The notes under the pieces are model-generated. The model searched no databases and had not been told where the DNA came from. It was given only the letters and a program-made list of their open reading frames with translations. A stretch of 64,000 bases of DNA from Patescibacteria group bacterium (GTDB lineage Bacteria; Patescibacteriota; Patescibacteriia; CAIXNZ01), in assembly GCA_041651155.1 (NCBI GenBank), contig JBAZJU010000001.1, forward strand, positions 27,932 through 91,931, in the 5' to 3' direction. The position numbers and the translations under genes were made by a program. Shown piece after piece: positions 6,568 through 37,475 of the stretch; the first letter of the stretch is position 1, and every line of letters starts with the position of its first letter.

Positions 6568-9348
6568 ATGAAAGAAATCCCCAAGGCCTACGATCCCAAA
6601 GAAGTTGAGGATAAAATTTATAAGTTATGGGAAGAATCAGGTTATTTTAATCCTGACAATTTGCCAGGTAATCGGCCTGATTATTTTTCCATTGCTATGC
6701 CGCCGCCAAATAGAACCGGTACCTTGCATACCGGCCATGCTTCCATGCTTGCTTATCAGGATTTAATGACGCGTTATAACCGGCTGGCAGGTAAAAAAAC
6801 TTTATGGCTGCCAGGCACTGATCATGCGGCGATCGCCACCCAAACTAAAGTTGAAAAAATTTTATATAAGGAGGAAAAGAAAACGCGCTATGATTTGGGA
6901 AAAGAAAAATTTTTAAAAAAAGTTGCTGAATTTGCAGAGGAATCTAAAAAAACAATTAATAATCAGGTGCGCAAAATGGGCTCATCCTGCGACTGGTCGC
7001 GTGAACGTTATACTTTGGATGATGGCTTAAACCAAGTAGTTAAATATGCTTTTGTGAAAATGCATGACGCTGGCTTGATCTATCGCGGTTATCGCATTGT
7101 TAATTGGTGCCCGCGTTGCGCTTCAACTCTGGCTGATGATGAAGTTGAATATGTGGCAACCAAAACAAAATTTTATACTTTCAAATATGCAAAAGATTTT
7201 CCGATTTCAATTTCCACTACCCGGCCTGAAACAAAATTGGGTGATACTGCAGTAGCTGTTAATCCCAAAGACCAGCGTTATAAAAAATTTATAGGTAAAA
7301 CATTTACAATAGATTTAGGCCATGGCAAACAGAAAATTAAAATTGTGGCTGATGAGTCAGTTGACCCCAAATTTGGCACAGGCGCTCTTGGCGTTACGCC
7401 TGCCCATTCTTTTGTGGATTTTGAAATTGCCCAAAAAAATAAATTGCCATTGATAAAAGTAATAGGCGAGGATGGCAAAATGACCAAAGAGGCAGGCAAG
7501 GATTATGAGGGATTAACGGTTTTAAAAGCCAGAGAAAAATTCGTGGCCTGGTTGGAAAAAAATAAATTAATGGACAAGGTGGAAGAAGTTGAACAAAATT
7601 TGAGCGTGTGTTATCGTTGCAATTCACTGATTGAACCTCTGCCCTCATTACAGTGGTTTGTGGACGTCAATAAAAAAATAACTTTAAAAGGCAATAAATA
7701 TTTCCAGAAAAAATCTCTCAAAGAAGTTGCCTTGCAGGTTGTGAAGGATAATGAAATAAAAATAATTCCCCAAAGATTTGAAGCAAATTATTTTCACTGG
7801 CTGGAAAATTTGCGCGATTGGTGCATTTCCCGCCAGATTTGGTTTGGGCATCAGATTCCCGTGTGGTACAGATCCTCCTCCGCTAAAGCTTCGGAGGACG
7901 GGGGTAAGGAAATTTATGTTGGGCTAGAAGCGCCAAAAGAAAAAGGATTTAAACAGGATGAAGATACTTTGGATACTTGGTTTTCATCTGGGCTGTGGAC
8001 TTTTTCAACATTATTAGATAAAGATTTTAAAAAATATAAATCTTGGGAGGATTGGATTAATGGTTCTAAGGATTTAGAATTTCATCCGACTTCAGTCATG
8101 GAAACTGGTTATGATATTTTATTTTTTTGGGTGGCACGCATGATTATCCAGACCACTTTCATGCTCGGTCAGATTCCATTTAAAAATGTTTATTTACATG
8201 GTTTGGTGCGCGATGAAAAAGGCAAAAAAATGTCCAAATCCTTGGGTAATGTGGTTGATCCTTTGGATATGATTAAAAAATTCGGCACTGATGCTCTGCG
8301 TTTGGCCATGATTTCAGGCACTTCAGCTGGTGCTGATTCGCGCTTGTATGATGAAAAAGTTGAGGGCAGCCGCAACTTTGTGAATAAGCTTTGGAATATA
8401 TCCCGTTATATTTTAACTTCAGTGCGCGAAGTCAGGCGAGTTGAGGAAATTCCTCATGGTGAAACTCTGGCTGACCAGTGGATTTTGGCAAAATTGGATT
8501 TGGTGATTAATGAAGTGACAGCAGATATTAATAAATTTAATTTTCCCGGGGCGGTTGAGGCTTTGCGCGAATTTACCTGGTCTGATCTGGCTGACTGGTA
8601 TTTGGAAATATCAAAATTGCAGATCAAAGAAAGTCCTGATAAACCTTATGAAGAATTAGGCGTGCATACTGAGACAATTTTACTTTATGTTTTGGAAAAA
8701 CTTTTAATTTTATGGCATCCGTTTATTCCTTTTGTGACAGAAGATATTTGGTCAAATTTTGAAGACGAGGATTTATTGATGATTCAGCCTTGGCCTTTAG
8801 TGACTGATAAAGAATTATTTACTGACATTAAAGATAGAGAATATCATGAGGAAACAGATAAGCTTTTGGATTACGATGAAATTTTGTATCCTTTTTATAA
8901 ATTTGAAGAAATTGTCATGACCATCAGAAATTTGCGCTCTGATTTTAAAATTGAACCAGCGAAAAAGGTTGAGGTCACAATTGTTGGGAAAGATTTAGAT
9001 AAAATAAAATTAAATGAACAAATTGATAATATAATTTATCTGGCTCGTTTGAATAATTTAGAAATCGGGAAAATTAAACCAGATAATTCTGTGTCTCATG
9101 TTTTGGAAGGAGTGGGTGAGATTTGTTTACATTTGCAGGGTCTCGTTGATTTGCCAAAAGAAAAAGCTCGTTTGGAAAATGAAATTGCCAGCGTTAAAAA
9201 ATATGCGCAATCTTTGGCACAAAAATTAAAGAATAAAGAGTTTACAAAAAAAGCGCCTAAGGATGTGGTGGAGAAAGAGCAAGAGAAATTAAAGCAACAG
9301 CAAGAGAAATTGGTGAAATTGGAAGAACAATTGAATAGCTTGAAATAG
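6568..9348 (+). CDS. valS: valine--tRNA ligase
   Basis: HIGH-region PPPNRTGTLHTGHA, KMSKSLGN motif, and a C-terminal coiled coil. Start placed at ATG 6568 (MKEIPKAYDPKEV). Confidence 0.9.
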   Translation: MKEIPKAYDPKEVEDKIYKLWEESGYFNPDNLPGNRPDYFSIAMPPPNRTGTLHTGHASMLAYQDLMTRYNRLAGKKTLWLPGTDHAAIATQTKVEKILYKEEKKTRYDLGKEKFLKKVAEFAEESKKTINNQVRKMGSSCDWSRERYTLDDGLNQVVKYAFVKMHDAGLIYRGYRIVNWCPRCASTLADDEVEYVATKTKFYTFKYAKDFPISISTTRPETKLGDTAVAVNPKDQRYKKFIGKTFTIDLGHGKQKIKIVADESVDPKFGTGALGVTPAHSFVDFEIAQKNKLPLIKVIGEDGKMTKEAGKDYEGLTVLKAREKFVAWLEKNKLMDKVEEVEQNLSVCYRCNSLIEPLPSLQWFVDVNKKITLKGNKYFQKKSLKEVALQVVKDNEIKIIPQRFEANYFHWLENLRDWCISRQIWFGHQIPVWYRSSSAKASEDGGKEIYVGLEAPKEKGFKQDEDTLDTWFSSGLWTFSTLLDKDFKKYKSWEDWINGSKDLEFHPTSVMETGYDILFFWVARMIIQTTFMLGQIPFKNVYLHGLVRDEKGKKMSKSLGNVVDPLDMIKKFGTDALRLAMISGTSAGADSRLYDEKVEGSRNFVNKLWNISRYILTSVREVRRVEEIPHGETLADQWILAKLDLVINEVTADINKFNFPGAVEALREFTWSDLADWYLEISKLQIKESPDKPYEELGVHTETILLYVLEKLLILWHPFIPFVTEDIWSNFEDEDLLMIQPWPLVTDKELFTDIKDREYHEETDKLLDYDEILYPFYKFEEIVMTIRNLRSDFKIEPAKKVEVTIVGKDLDKIKLNEQIDNIIYLARLNNLEIGKIKPDNSVSHVLEGVGEICLHLQGLVDLPKEKARLENEIASVKKYAQSLAQKLKNKEFTKKAPKDVVEKEQEKLKQQQEKLVKLEEQLNSLK
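7876..7898. repeat. mini-hairpin element (TCCTCCG-CTAAAGCTT-CGGAGGA) inserted in-frame in valS
   Basis: The 15-nt core CGCTAAAGCTTCGGA is identical to the element at 11949-11976 and is related to copies at 4247-4272 and 37330-37352. It encodes SSAKASED in a variable region before the DTWFSS motif. Confidence 0.5.
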
Positions 9349-11919: not shown

Positions 11920-11948
11920 AGGGAAGAGGAGTAAGAAGGGTAAAAGGG

Positions 11949-11976
11949 GTCATCCTACGCTAAAGCTTCGGATGAC
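11949..11976. repeat. mini-hairpin element GTCATCC-TACGCTAAAGCTTC-GGATGAC
   Basis: Perfect 7-bp stem. The loop carries the conserved core CGCTAAAGCTTCGG. It lies 30 nt after the tyrS stop. Confidence 0.5.
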
Positions 11977-12036
11977 ATGTAAGAAGGGATAAAATAATTT
12001 TTGTAGATTTGTAATATAATTTGTAATTTTGTAGGG

Positions 12037-13746: not shown

Positions 13747-13761
13747 AAATTTTAAATAAAG

Positions 13762-13795
13762 AAACCCCGCACACTTTGAATGCGGGGTTTTTAAG
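13762..13795 (+). terminator. rho-independent terminator after argS
   Basis: AACCCCGCA cactttgaa TGCGGGGTT followed by TTTAAGTTTT. Confidence 0.6.
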
Positions 13796-14773
13796 TTTTC
13801 TAGACTTACAGTCCATAGCTTTTCCCTCGGGAGCGGGGATCCTCCATCTGGCATTTGCATCAGTATCATTGGCGGAAGAAAGAAAGACCGCCTCGCTGGG
13901 CAAGTTCCCAGATTTCCCCTTTTGGGAGACTAAGCTCTAGAATTACTTCTAGTCGGAGACATATTGTTTGCAAGATTGTATTTAGCCGGCATTCCGGTAA
14001 AATGATTTTGGCTTAGAATTTTTCTTGCGCACTTTATGTTTGGGCTATGAGGCTGGAGATAGCTGAAATGAGAAAGAACTCTCCCGATATTGCCTTTGCT
14101 AGTCTAAAAAACTCAACTGATTTTAGTTTAACTTATTACTTAATTATTGGCAATCTTTTAGGGATTTTTCCACAGAAATTAGATGGAGTTGTTAAAAGTT
14201 ATTAACAAAAAGCCGCTTGCTTTATTATCCTGAAAAAAATGAGAGGACAAGGATTCTTCGCTTTGCTTTGAATGACAGAAGAGGTTTTTTGTTTAACTGT
14301 GCATAAATCATCTAATTATTTTTAACAAAAATTGAGATTAAAAACCTCTTGTCAGAAAAAACAGGCATGATATTTTTAAGGCATAAATGCTTGAGCCAAA
14401 ATTAGCTTGGGCAATATAAAGTAAAACTATGAAAGGGGGAAACAAAAATCAAAAAAAGAGAGCACTCCTTCGCACAAGGCTACGGAGTGCAGGGAGGTAA
14501 ACACTTTTAATTGTGAAGGTGTTTTTTTATTGTTAGTTCTTTGAAAACAAAAAACAAAAGAAAGGAGTACGTGATTTAAAGTAGAAAAAGTTTAAAAGCA
14601 ACAGGAGCGCGTCATTTGGCAAGAAAAAAGCTTAACCTCAAAAATTGGACGAGTTGAAAAGCATTTTAACGCGACCTTTGGCACGTTAAAATGTCTGGCC
14701 CTGCACTAGCCTAGTTATGTACTGGGCAGTGCAGGGTAAAGTTTAACCCAAAACAAATTCAAGGAGTTCTGAA

Positions 14774-37001: not shown

Positions 37002-37075
37002 TGGGCGCTGGAGGGATCGAACCCCCGACCTACTCGGTGTAAACGAGTCGCTCTAACCAGCTGAGCTAAGCGCCC
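37002..37075 (-). tRNA. tRNA-Val (anticodon TAC)
   Basis: Reverse-complement folds as GGGCGCT/AGCGCCC acceptor, anticodon stem ACTCG/CGAGT with loop TTTACAC, and T-arm GGGGG TTCGATC CCTCC. Confidence 0.8.
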
Positions 37076-37211
37076 TGGAATAACTAATAACTTATAACTA
37101 TAACAATAACTCTTGGTATGCGCTTAGCGAAGCTGGTTGCCGTCCGTAAATACTTTAATTCACAACTGCCTGCCTGCCGTAGCTTTAGCGAAGGCAGGAG
37201 CTAAGCGCCCT
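37076..37211 (-). repeat. tRNA-Val-leader repeat unit A (136 nt)
   Basis: Minus-sense begins GGGCGCTTAGCTC, the first 13 nt of tRNA-Val(TAC). It is followed by the hairpin CCTGCC-TTCGCTAAAGCTACG-GCAGG, then GCAGGCAG, then the box AACCAGCTTCGCTAAGC. Confidence 0.5.
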
Positions 37212-37376
37212 AGAATAACTAATAATTTATAACGATAACAATAACTTTTGTAAGGAGCTTAGCGAAGCTGGTTATCACCCATAAATACATACTAACCAAA
37301 CTGCCTGCCTGCCGTAGCTTTTTTATCCGCCGAAGCTTTAGCGTAGGTGGAAGCGAAGGCAGGAGCTAAGTGCCCT
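37212..37376 (-). repeat. tRNA-Val-leader repeat unit B (165 nt), with nested mini-hairpin insertion
   Basis: Begins GGGCACTTAGCTC. Same architecture as unit A, plus an extra CCACCTACGCTAAAGCTTCGGCGG element inserted in the hairpin loop. Confidence 0.5.
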
Positions 37377-37393
37377 TGGATTTTTTTTGCGGG

Positions 37394-37475
37394 TGCGCGG
37401 GAGAGGACTCGAACCTCCACGCCTTGCGGCACAGGCACCTCAAGCCTGCTTGTCTACCGGTTTCAACACCCGCGC
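37394..37475 (-). tRNA. tRNA-Leu (anticodon GAG), long variable arm
   Basis: Reverse-complement folds as GCGCGGG/CCCGCGC acceptor, anticodon stem CAGGC/GCCTG with loop TTGAGGT, a 13-nt variable arm, and a T-arm with TTCGAGT loop. Confidence 0.75.

What the first reader, a model, noticed from the sequence alone, without database searches (positions are those of the whole stretch)
7876..7898. Mini-hairpin repeat inserted in-frame inside the valS coding sequence
TCCTCCG-CTAAAGCTT-CGGAGGA has a perfect 7-bp stem. It shares an identical 15-nt core (CGCTAAAGCTTCGGA) with the intergenic element at 11949-11976, and 18 nt with the element at 37330-37348. A chance 15-mer match in 64 kb is about 1e-4. 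The element lies inside valS and keeps the reading frame. It adds SSAKASED to a variable surface loop just before the conserved DTWFSS motif. A palindromic repeat that colonises both intergenic and coding DNA and is tolerated in an essential synthetase is unusual. Such a repeat would also form an RNA structure inside the mRNA.
Basis: seen in the sequence. Interest (0 to 1): 0.6.

Follow-up and report, generated by a model that had tools for sequence, protein, structure and literature searches.

The report
30-nt hairpin repeat inside valS
The small palindrome in the valyl-tRNA synthetase gene is a real in-frame insertion of a 30-nucleotide hairpin repeat; related copies lie between genes, beside tRNA genes, inside each other and inside other housekeeping genes in bacteria of about fifteen phyla.

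Summary
Confirmed. Window 7873-7902 (TCCTCCTCCGCTAAAGCTTCGGAGGACGGG) is exactly 30 nt that an 88%-identical ValS relative lacks (TGGTACAAA|GGCAAG). It adds SSSAKASEDG to the loop that replaces the Thermus ValRS zinc knuckle.

It is one copy of a hairpin family with consensus YCCKCC-TWC-GC-TAAA-GC-TTC-GGMGGR-CARG (30 nt). The outer stem covaries (115 double changes vs 39 expected; 0/500 shuffles). The inner helix varies.

The window holds six copies:
- 4247
- 7873
- 11949
- 14462
- 37169(-)
- 37322(-), a clean 30-nt insertion into the loop of another copy

ValS of related Patescibacteria carries family copies at three different sites, interleaved with empty relatives. Other copies sit in-frame in IleRS, two DNA ligases, TGT, alanine racemase and other genes.

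The 18-mer core occurs in about 15 phyla, including cultured Bradyrhizobium. 12% of copies abut tRNA genes.

I found no target duplication, no linked transposase, no Rfam match and no GTAG/CGTC tag.

Best reading: a REP/SDR-like non-autonomous hairpin element that is a tolerated passenger in valS. How it moves is unresolved. In-frame palindromic repeats are known; this family's small size and multi-phylum conservation appear undescribed.

The parts
6568..9348 (+). valS (valine--tRNA ligase), intact host gene
   Evidence: ORF. 100% identical to P0001, 'valine--tRNA ligase [Patescibacteria group bacterium]'. E = 4e-174 to Thermus ValRS 1GAX. HTGH and KMSKS motifs present.
7873..7902 (+). 30-nt in-frame hairpin insert TCCTCC-TCC-GC-TAAA-GC-TTC-GGAGGA-CGGG, encoding SSSAKASEDG.
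   Evidence: Filled versus empty site against L002. Matches the family consensus unit. Folds at -13.2 kcal/mol as RNA.
4247..4276 (+). Family copy CCCACC-TAC-GC-TGAT-GC-TTC-GGTGGG-CAGG between tRNA-Ile(UAU) and tRNA-Val(GAC)
   Evidence: Structural detector. Absent from the orthologous spacers of L001-L003.
11949..11976 (+). Intergenic family copy GTCATCC-TAC-GC-TAAA-GC-TTC-GGATGAC, between a 432-aa ORF and argS, flanked by GTAAGAAGGG direct repeats at 11931 and 11979
   Evidence: L002:1954 has the same stem and flanks at a non-orthologous site.
14462..14494 (+). Family copy GCACTCC-TTC-GC-ACAAG-GC-TAC-GGAGTGC-AGGG in the gene-free gap downstream of argS
   Evidence: Orthologous copy in L251, absent in L002.
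37169..37198 (-). Family copy CCTGCC-TTC-GC-TAAA-GC-TAC-GGCAGG-CAGG upstream of tRNA-Val(UAC)
37304..37363 (-). Second copy of the same CCTGCC...GGCAGG hairpin, interrupted in its TAAA loop by another family copy
   Evidence: Comparison of the two 135-nt tandem units.
37322..37351 (-). Nested 30-nt insert TCCACC-TAC-GC-TAAA-GC-TTC-GGCGGA-TAAA. Boundaries are ambiguous by up to 3 nt because of an A-run.
   Evidence: Host loop 'ttta' versus 34 nt in the interrupted copy, giving a 30-nt insert.

Best explanation
The valS palindrome is one copy of a dispersed, non-coding, non-autonomous 30-nt hairpin repeat. Its layout is a 6-bp pyrimidine/purine outer stem, a symmetric 3x3 internal loop (TWC/TWC, which is GWA/GWA on the other strand), a short variable inner stem-loop and a CARG tail. 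In kind it resembles REP elements and the 'small dispersed repeats' of Nostoc.

Shown: a copy was inserted, without target-site duplication and in phase, into the loop of ValRS that replaces the ancestral zinc knuckle. The reading frame there gives a short hydrophilic peptide (SSSAKASEDG), and the gene remains intact.

Inferred: it is a tolerated passenger with no valS-specific function. Copies are made by a copy-and-paste process that acts on the folded single-stranded hairpin in trans. That process could be a REP/RAYT-like HUH enzyme encoded elsewhere, or template switching or gene conversion from another copy. Selection then keeps only copies that land in gene-free DNA, tRNA flanks, loops of other copies, or permissive protein loops in one of the four open frames.
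For: Insertion:
- Exact 30-nt filled versus empty site.
- The same-size insert sits in the loop of another copy.
- A third filled/empty pair lies downstream of argS in L002.

Family definition:
- Across 121 copies, conservation and pairing stop 4 nt to the left and about 8 nt to the right of the 18-mer, giving a 30-nt unit.
- Outer-stem covariation: 92.7% of cells paired versus 27-50% when slid; 115 double changes versus 39+-6; 0/500 shuffles.
- The strict structural detector gives 0 hits in shuffles but 5 (+1 nested) in the window.
- The sister variant with inner helix GCCAAGGC has the same stems and tail.
- An 18-mer of the same composition with a broken inner helix gives 0 hits, versus 14 and 52.

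Passenger status:
- Family copies sit at three different ValS sites in different lineages, interleaved with empty relatives.
- In-frame copies lie in Pyr_redox_2, alanine racemase, TGT, an ATP-dependent DNA ligase and LigA (Pfam confirmed), and in IleRS, a histidine kinase and a membrane protein (identified by eye).
- The insert lies in a hypervariable loop that in other lineages holds whole inserted domains or a zinc ribbon.

Non-autonomous: no protein family recurs within the 120 8-kb loci.

Not a one-strand RNA element: G-T and A-C mismatches are equally frequent, and there is no Rfam match.

Precedent: intragenic REPs occur in tRNA synthetase and ligase genes (PMC3733652).
Against: - The mobilising activity is unknown. 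No RAYT or other transposase was found, although only 64 kb of this genome was available.
- No consistent target motif emerges from the few filled/empty pairs.
- REP families are normally genome- or genus-specific, whereas this unit is nearly identical across about 15 phyla. A simple REP/RAYT model does not predict that.
- The same ValS sites are occupied in distant lineages (site 1: P0001/P0002 and P0022; site 2: P0105 and P0120). That needs either site preference or old polymorphism with precise loss.
- Silent sites in the insert are more conserved than in the rest of valS (10/10 versus 61%, p about 0.007). This is compatible with a nucleotide-level function I have not identified.
Confidence: 0.75

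Rival explanations
1. Old resident, not recently mobile. The site-1 insert entered valS once, before P0001 and P0022 diverged (about 70% amino-acid identity). The hairpin has since been kept by nucleotide-level constraint or intra-palindrome correction, and it was precisely deleted many times in the intervening lineages.
For: The window and L003 inserts share the same codon boundary, a 20-mer, the rarer TCC variant of the internal loop and a CGRG tail. The palindrome could favour slippage deletions.
Against: At least 15 closer cluster representatives lack it, and the empty site in L002 is clean. Silent sites are 10/10 identical although they are only 61% identical elsewhere in the gene, which fits a younger insert. 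The argS-downstream gap shows turnover between genomes only about 10% diverged in ValS.
Confidence: 0.15
2. The hairpin is a functional cis-element of valS. It would be an mRNA structure that modulates translation or mRNA stability, or its peptide would be a functional addition to ValRS.
For: A stem of about -13 kcal/mol is predicted in the mRNA. Silent sites in the insert are unusually conserved. In this clade 9 of 10 classifiable copies are in the sense orientation.
Against: The same unit occurs in unrelated genes, in intergenic DNA and beside tRNA genes across phyla. Relatives that are 85-88% identical do without it. The fold z-score is only -0.75 for the valS context. In the broad sample the orientation bias is not significant.
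Confidence: 0.05
3. It is a member of a classical REP/RAYT system. The hairpins would be substrates of a REP-associated tyrosine transposase encoded once per genome.
For: It is a short imperfect palindrome with a 4-nt unpaired tag at one end. Insertions show no target duplication. Some copies form inverted pairs (L084, Bradyrhizobium loci). Intragenic copies are a known REP behaviour.
Against: The tag is CARG/CYTG, not GTAG or CGTC. Most copies are singletons. The unit is near-identical across phyla, unlike REPs, which co-vary with their RAYT. No Y1-transposase-like family recurs near copies. Patescibacteria are not among the phyla I recall as RAYT hosts (from memory, not tested).
Confidence: 0.2
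4. It is a chance palindrome or an assembly or adapter artefact.
For: TCCTCCTCCG resembles part of the PacBio SMRTbell hairpin adapter (from memory). Most genomes that carry the element are MAGs.
Against: Five matches versus 0.31 expected. The stems covary. The same insert is present in independent assemblies (P0001 in NCBI and JGI; P0022 in two GenBank assemblies). Copies occur in cultured isolates, including a complete Bradyrhizobium chromosome, and at the same locus in four Bradyrhizobium loci (L157, L163, L192, L193).
Confidence: 0.01

Closest known systems
Small dispersed repeats (SDR1-8) of Nostoc punctiforme (Elhai et al. 2008, Genome Res 18:1484; cited in PMC3116915; content recalled from memory because the paper is not held)
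   Same: Very small size (21-27 nt there, 26-30 nt here). Hairpin supported by compensatory changes. Copies inserted inside copies of themselves. No element-encoded protein. Found embedded in other repeats; the 11949 copy sits between GTAAGAAGGG repeats.
   Different: SDRs were reported as confined to a subgroup of cyanobacteria, whereas this family spans about 15 phyla. Sequence relatedness could not be tested. A preference for tRNA flanks and frequent in-frame residence in housekeeping genes were not, as far as I recall, SDR features.
REP elements of the GTAG- and CGTC-tagged super-families, including intragenic REPs (Di Nocera et al. 2013, PMC3733652)
   Same: A 20-40 bp imperfect palindrome with a short unpaired tag at one end. 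Mostly intergenic, and some copies are terminator-like. A minority lie entirely inside ORFs and are translated, notably in tRNA synthetase, DNA ligase and repair genes. The CGTC type also lacks a known transposase.
   Different: The tag here is CA(A/G)G, not GTAG or CGTC. The stem is interrupted by a conserved 3x3 internal loop. Copies are mostly single, not head-to-head dimers. The same unit sequence is shared across phyla.
Rickettsia palindromic elements (RPE; Ogata et al. 2000, cited via PMC3733652)
   Same: Palindromic repeats inserted in-frame into essential genes, adding peptide segments at permissive surface positions without inactivating the protein.
   Different: RPE-1 is about 100-150 bp and specific to Rickettsia. 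Here the unit is 30 nt (10 aa) and occurs in many phyla.
REPINs / RAYT system (Bertels & Rainey 2011, PMC3116915)
   Same: A non-autonomous hairpin repeat presumed to be mobilised in trans through a single-stranded intermediate.
   Different: REPINs are inverted REP doublets of about 100 nt with a cognate RAYT gene. The window copies are singlets, and no RAYT was seen.

Membership tests
REP (GTAG/CGTC-tagged super-families) | 20-40 bp imperfect palindrome able to form a stem-loop | tested here: met
   26-nt hairpin with covarying outer stem. The predicted fold matches.
REP (GTAG/CGTC-tagged super-families) | Unpaired terminal GTAG or CGTC (TGTC/CCTC) tag | tested here: not met
   The unpaired end is CA(A/G)G (CYTG on the other strand) in 121 + 53 copies. 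In valS it is CGGG.
REP (GTAG/CGTC-tagged super-families) | Many dispersed copies per genome, mainly extragenic | tested here: inconclusive
   6 copies in 64 kb and 5 in 92 kb of relatives. The whole genome was not available.
REP/RAYT and REPIN | Cognate REP-associated tyrosine transposase gene flanked by the repeats; repeats organised as inverted doublets | tested here: inconclusive
   No recurrent protein family in the 120 8-kb loci. The window copies are singlets; doublets were seen only in some other genomes. A single-copy RAYT elsewhere in the genome cannot be excluded.
Nostoc SDR elements | Hairpin repeat of about 21-27 nt with compensatory changes and nested self-insertion | tested here: met
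   26-nt hairpin plus 4-nt tail; covariation; nested 30-nt insert at 37322-37351; further tandem or nested copies in L036, L175 and L243.
Nostoc SDR elements | Sequence identity to SDR1-8 and restriction to heterocystous cyanobacteria | not testable with these tools
   The paper is not held. None of the 120 genome loci is cyanobacterial.
MITE | Terminal inverted repeats plus target-site duplication; usually >50 bp | tested here: not met
   No duplication at the valS, nested or L002 sites, only 1-4 nt boundary ambiguities. The unit is 30 nt.
Rickettsia palindromic element (RPE) | In-frame insertion of a palindromic repeat into protein-coding genes | tested here: met
   valS plus 8 other genes.
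Rickettsia palindromic element (RPE) | Unit of about 100-150 bp, Rickettsia-specific sequence families | tested here: not met
   30-nt unit found in about 15 phyla.
Intrinsic (Rho-independent) terminator | GC-rich hairpin immediately followed by a U-run | tested here: not met
   The valS copy is followed by CGGGGGTAAGG. Only 14 of 123 family copies have a T-rich tract downstream, and only on the GAA strand.

The most novel reading that the evidence does not exclude
A hairpin of about 30 nt (YCCKCC-TWC-short helix-TWC-GGMGGR-CARG) is a protein-less mobile element, smaller than any MITE or REPIN. It has spread, or is continually regenerated, across at least 15 bacterial phyla with its sequence almost unchanged. 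It inserts without target duplication into tRNA flanks, into the loops of its own copies and into permissive loops of essential genes. This would imply mobilisation by a conserved host or widely shared trans-acting activity that has not been described.
Probability: 0.3. Interest if true: 0.8.

Novelty: new variant of a known kind. Interest (0 to 1): 0.55.

Why it matters
For this gene it matters little. ValRS tolerates ten extra residues in a loop that is variable anyway.

The family behind the insert is more interesting. A 30-nt unit with a conserved architecture recurs from Patescibacteria to Bradyrhizobium. It nests inside itself, clusters at tRNA gene ends about 60 times more often than my rough estimate for random placement, and repeatedly ends up translated inside aminoacyl-tRNA synthetases, DNA ligases and other core enzymes.

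If it is truly mobile, it would be among the smallest mobile DNAs known. It would also be a recurrent source of small insertions in the otherwise streamlined proteins of CPR bacteria, and a source of spurious peptides such as FAKAS, EALAK and RSFSEGG in metagenome annotations.

It also offers many natural filled/empty site pairs for working out how hairpin repeats that carry no transposase of their own propagate.

Tried and rejected
- **Chance.** Rejected by shuffles and by the composition-matched control 18-mer.
- **Known RNA family.** No Rfam hit at gathering thresholds in the window or six other loci, and none at E <= 10 on 37060-37400.
- **tRNA-derived element.** The 37-kb and 4.2-kb copies sit in composites with tRNA 5' fragments, but most family copies have no tRNA nearby. 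I dropped tRNA origin and kept the tRNA-flank preference.
- **Stem derived from the target (inverted duplication).** Rejected, because the stems follow a family consensus YCCKCC/GGMGGR with only two freely covarying positions.
- **Target-site duplication.** None is consistent.
- **Linked transposase, integrase or reverse transcriptase.** None recurs.
- **Phage or plasmid vector.** The family is sparse in IMG/VR (14 stretches) and essentially absent from sequenced plasmids and cultured phages.
- **Strand-specific RNA selection from wobble pairs.** G-T and A-C mismatches are balanced.
- **Literature.** Searches for the motif string and for CPR hairpin repeats found no description. Elhai 2008 could not be read.
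- **Exact 30-nt boundaries for ValS site 3.** Withdrawn after finding that P0005 also carries the copy and that the neighbouring sequences vary in length.
Full report
**Observation.** Window 7876-7898 is TCCTCCG-CTAAAGCTT-CGGAGGA, as reported. The 14-mer CGCTAAAGCTTCGG is exact at 7881(+), 11958(+) and 37330(-). It has one mismatch at 37177(-) and two at 4255(+). That makes five matches where 0.31 are expected, and no shuffle out of 100 reaches five. The element lies in an intact 934-codon ORF (6544-9348). This ORF is 100% identical to a Patescibacteria valine--tRNA ligase (P0001) and matches Thermus ValRS 1GAX at E = 4e-174. One detail of the finding is off. The valS copy shares 14 nt, not 18, with the 37330 copy; the 18-nt identity is between the 11949 and 37330 copies.

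**It is an insertion, and its unit is 30 nt.** ValS relatives form a graded series.
- P0002 (88% identical) has VWYK-SSSAKASEDE-GEEIYV.
- P0003 (88%) and P0005 (85%) have VWYK-GKEIYV.
- At the DNA level L002 reads TGGTACAAA|GGCAAGGAA.
- The window reads TGGTACAGA[TCCTCCTCCGCTAAAGCTTCGGAGGACGGG]GGTAAGGAA, and L001 has the same 30 extra bases with two substitutions.

The insert starts at codon position 1 and encodes SSSAKASEDG. There is no target-site duplication. The segment aligns to the zinc knuckle of Thermus ValRS (AWYCEDCQ...CEACGS), whose cysteines are lost in this clade. In other relatives the same spot holds a zinc ribbon, assorted short inserts, or whole extra domains: PF00300, PF02567 and PF06821. 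It is therefore a permissive loop.

**The family.** Looser searches showed that the core is the apical part of a defined hairpin. A viral-contig scan with the 14-mer was mostly chance hits, but about 20 hits had complementary flanks.

In 121 copies from that scan, pairing and conservation extend exactly 4 nt to the left and about 8 nt to the right. The consensus is YCCKCC-TWC-GC-TAAA-GC-TTC-GGMGGR-CA(A/G)G, which adds up to 30 nt. Two independent insert boundaries delimit the same length: valS, and the nested copy described below.

The four outer-stem pairs not fixed by the search covary:
- 92.7% of cells are paired, against 27-50% when the partner is slid.
- There are 115 double-sided changes against 39 +- 6 in shuffles.
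- 0 of 500 shuffles reach the observed values.

ViennaRNA predicts this architecture for the consensus, at -11.6 and -13.3 kcal/mol as RNA on the two strands. G-T and A-C mismatches are equally common, so nothing singles out one transcript strand. This fits a DNA-level palindrome.

The inner helix varies: GC-TGAT-GC, GC-ACAAG-GC, GCC-AA-GGC, GCTTC-TGC-GAAGC and others. The commonest sister variant, CCTTCGCCAAGGCTTCGG, has the same stems and the same CARG tail. In IMG/VR it gives 52 stretches and the CTAAAG variant gives 14. A control 18-mer of identical composition with the inner helix broken gives none.

**Copies in the window.** A strict structural detector that gives zero hits in dinucleotide shuffles finds five copies in the window. 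With the nested copy, which it misses, the window holds six (coordinates verified):
- 4247-4276
- 7873-7902
- 11949-11976
- 14462-14494
- 37169-37198(-)
- 37322-37351(-)

The last is a clean 30-nt insertion (TCCACCTACGCTAAAGCTTCGGCGGATAAA) into the TAAA loop of a second CCTGCC...GGCAGG copy. This is seen by comparing the two 135-nt tandem units at 37063-37321. The 4247 copy is absent from the orthologous tRNA-Ile/tRNA-Val spacers of three relatives.

Downstream of argS, the window and L251 share the 14462 copy. L002 lacks that copy and instead has a different family member about 60 nt upstream: ATGAAAG[CCCTCC...GGAGGGCAAAG]GGGGAAA, where the other two are empty. Copies have therefore turned over between genomes only about 10% diverged in ValS.

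**Coding copies are recurrent.** Within ValS itself three sites are occupied in different lineages.
- **Site 1**, after VWY(K/R): P0001, P0002 and the distant P0022.
- **Site 2**, after TLGWP: P0105 and P0120. L249 reads CCCGCC-TCC-GC-TAAA-GC-TTC-GGCGGG. L250 reads CCCGAC-TCC-GCC-AA-GGC-TTC-GTCGGG. The two differ by compensatory changes in both helices, some of them non-synonymous.
- **Site 3**, after FWP: P0005 and P0006.

On a ValS tree the occupied lineages are interleaved with closer empty relatives. That implies either repeated gain at the same permissive positions or repeated precise loss.

Between the window and L003 (70% amino-acid identity), third-codon positions in the insert are 10/10 identical, against 61% at identical-residue codons elsewhere (p about 0.007). 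This argues against a neutrally drifting ancient peptide. It favours a younger insert or nucleotide-level constraint.

In other genomes the 18-mer lies in long open frames of real genes:
- Confirmed by Pfam: Pyr_redox_2 oxidoreductase, alanine racemase, TGT, an ATP-dependent DNA ligase and LigA.
- Identified by eye: an IleRS, a histidine kinase and a membrane protein.

The peptides read FAKAS, EALAK or RSFSEGG according to orientation and frame.

**Distribution and context.** By my own reading and tally of the record titles, the 120 genome loci comprise about 26 Patescibacteria, about 36 Bacteroidota and about 27 Alphaproteobacteria. The remainder come from Nitrospirota, Verrucomicrobiota, Planctomycetota, Omnitrophota, Dehalococcoidia, Desulfobacterota, Bdellovibrionota, Elusimicrobiota, TM6, Cloacimonadota and Gammaproteobacteria. 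GC content ranges from 33 to 66%. Ten loci are from cultured isolates: six Bradyrhizobium, with the copy at the same locus in four of them (L157, L163, L192, L193), plus Mesorhizobium, Sphingorhabdus, Aureisphaera and Geomonas.

Fifteen of 123 copies (12%) lie within 30 nt of a tRNA gene end, most within 0-5 nt. My rough estimate for random placement is about 0.2%, assuming one tRNA gene per ~70 kb. Several Bacteroidota copies follow a tRNA 3' end on the GAA strand and are themselves followed by a T-run, so they look like terminators. Overall 14 copies have T-rich DNA downstream on that strand, against 3 on the other.

No protein family recurs in the 8-kb loci. Rfam has no match. Sequenced plasmids and cultured phages essentially lack the unit.

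**Interpretation.** The valS palindrome is a passenger copy of a small non-autonomous hairpin repeat. It is kept because it landed in phase, in an open frame, in a permissive loop.

The shown steps are the insertion itself, family membership, hairpin covariation, nesting, turnover, and recurrent coding residence.

The inferred step is the mode of propagation. The absence of target duplication and of a linked gene, together with the hairpin-plus-4-nt-tag design, resembles substrates of HUH/Y1 enzymes (REP/RAYT, IS200/IS605). However, the tag is not GTAG or CGTC, copies are mostly single, and near-identity across phyla is not typical REP behaviour. Template switching or gene conversion from other copies, or an RNA-mediated route as was proposed for the Nostoc SDR elements (recalled from memory), remain open.

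**Comparison with known systems.** In-frame palindromic repeats are established: Rickettsia RPEs, and intragenic GTAG/CGTC REPs, including some in tRNA synthetase and ligase genes (PMC3733652). Nested, ultra-small hairpin repeats are known from Nostoc (Elhai 2008, cited in PMC3116915).

This family works like those, but it fails the defining tag test for the REP super-families and the size and host tests for RPEs. I found no description of the motif in the searchable literature. I therefore rate it a new variant of a known kind.

**Limits.** Only 64 kb of the source genome was available. The genome scan was truncated at 120 rows, so prevalence is a lower bound and taxon proportions may be biased by scan order. 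The 18-mer was fixed by the search, so conservation inside it is by construction. The mobilising mechanism is not identified.

Noticed in passing
window 4236-4340 (+); 37115-37216 (-); 37250-37381 (-): Three composites lie just upstream of tRNA-Val genes. Each has a direct copy of that tRNA's own first ~13 nt (GGGCAATTAGCTC or GGGCGCTTAGCTC), then a family hairpin plus CAGGCAG, about 30 nt of spacer, and an inverted copy of tRNA positions ~3-21 with TC changed to GA (AACCAGCTTCGCTAATTGC / ...TAAGCGC). They could form a long hairpin, or pair with the 5' half of the real tRNA. Origin and function are unexplained.
   Followed up: partly
window 37063-37321: A 135-nt tandem duplication (83% identity) lies between tRNA-Val(UAC) and tRNA-Leu(GAG). 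The second unit carries the nested hairpin insert.
   Followed up: partly
window 4157-4229: A tRNA-Ile gene with anticodon UAU lies next to tRNA-Val(GAC), and the pair is conserved in L001-L003. From memory, a UAU isoleucine tRNA is uncommon in bacteria, which usually read AUA with a lysidine-modified CAU tRNA.
   Followed up: no
ValS relatives P0013, P0020, P0021, P0040, P0047, P0051, P0079, P0081 and others, at the position equivalent to window ~7870: In many Patescibacteria ValS proteins the loop that holds the 30-nt insert here carries whole inserted domains instead: histidine phosphatase PF00300, PhzF PF02567 and PF06821. The proteins reach 1050-1170 aa.
   Followed up: no
L251:4421-4470 (P0006; the same peptide in P0004 and P0018): A different, longer palindromic insert sits about 10 residues downstream of site 1. 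Its sequence is CCGCCC-TCAGCTGATGGTTCGACTAAGCTCACCATGACAGCTTC-GGGCGG and it encodes SADGSTKLTMTASG. P0006 also has PEADQPLADK and an N-terminal TLREPQGDKRA segment that look repeat-encoded.
   Followed up: partly
window 11931-11940 and 11979-11988; L002 around 1930-1990: The 11949 hairpin is bracketed by direct GTAAGAAGGG repeats. A copy with the same TCATCC stem sits in similar purine-rich repeats at a non-orthologous site in L002. It may be a hairpin embedded in another short repeat.
   Followed up: partly
window 13747-14773 (e.g. 13813-13851, 14346-14379, 14699-14736): This 1-kb gene-free gap between argS and a large secreted-protein gene contains blocks conserved in L002 and L251. These include CCATAGCTTTTCCCTCGGGAGCGGGGATCCTCCATCTGG and a long hairpin CCCTGCACTAGCC...GGGCAGTGCAGGG just before the next gene. 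They could be an unannotated RNA or a regulatory leader; Rfam found nothing.
   Followed up: no
window and L001-L003, L249-L251: In this clade 9 of 10 classifiable family copies have the TWC strand as the sense strand of the local transcription unit, and the minus-strand copies near 37.2 kb follow the minus-strand tRNA genes. In the broad genome sample the bias is weak (14:7 intergenic, 7:5 intragenic; p = 0.19).
   Followed up: yes
window 1-64000: GC skew is positive in 15 of the 16 4-kb bins. This suggests that the whole window lies on one replichore arm.
   Followed up: no
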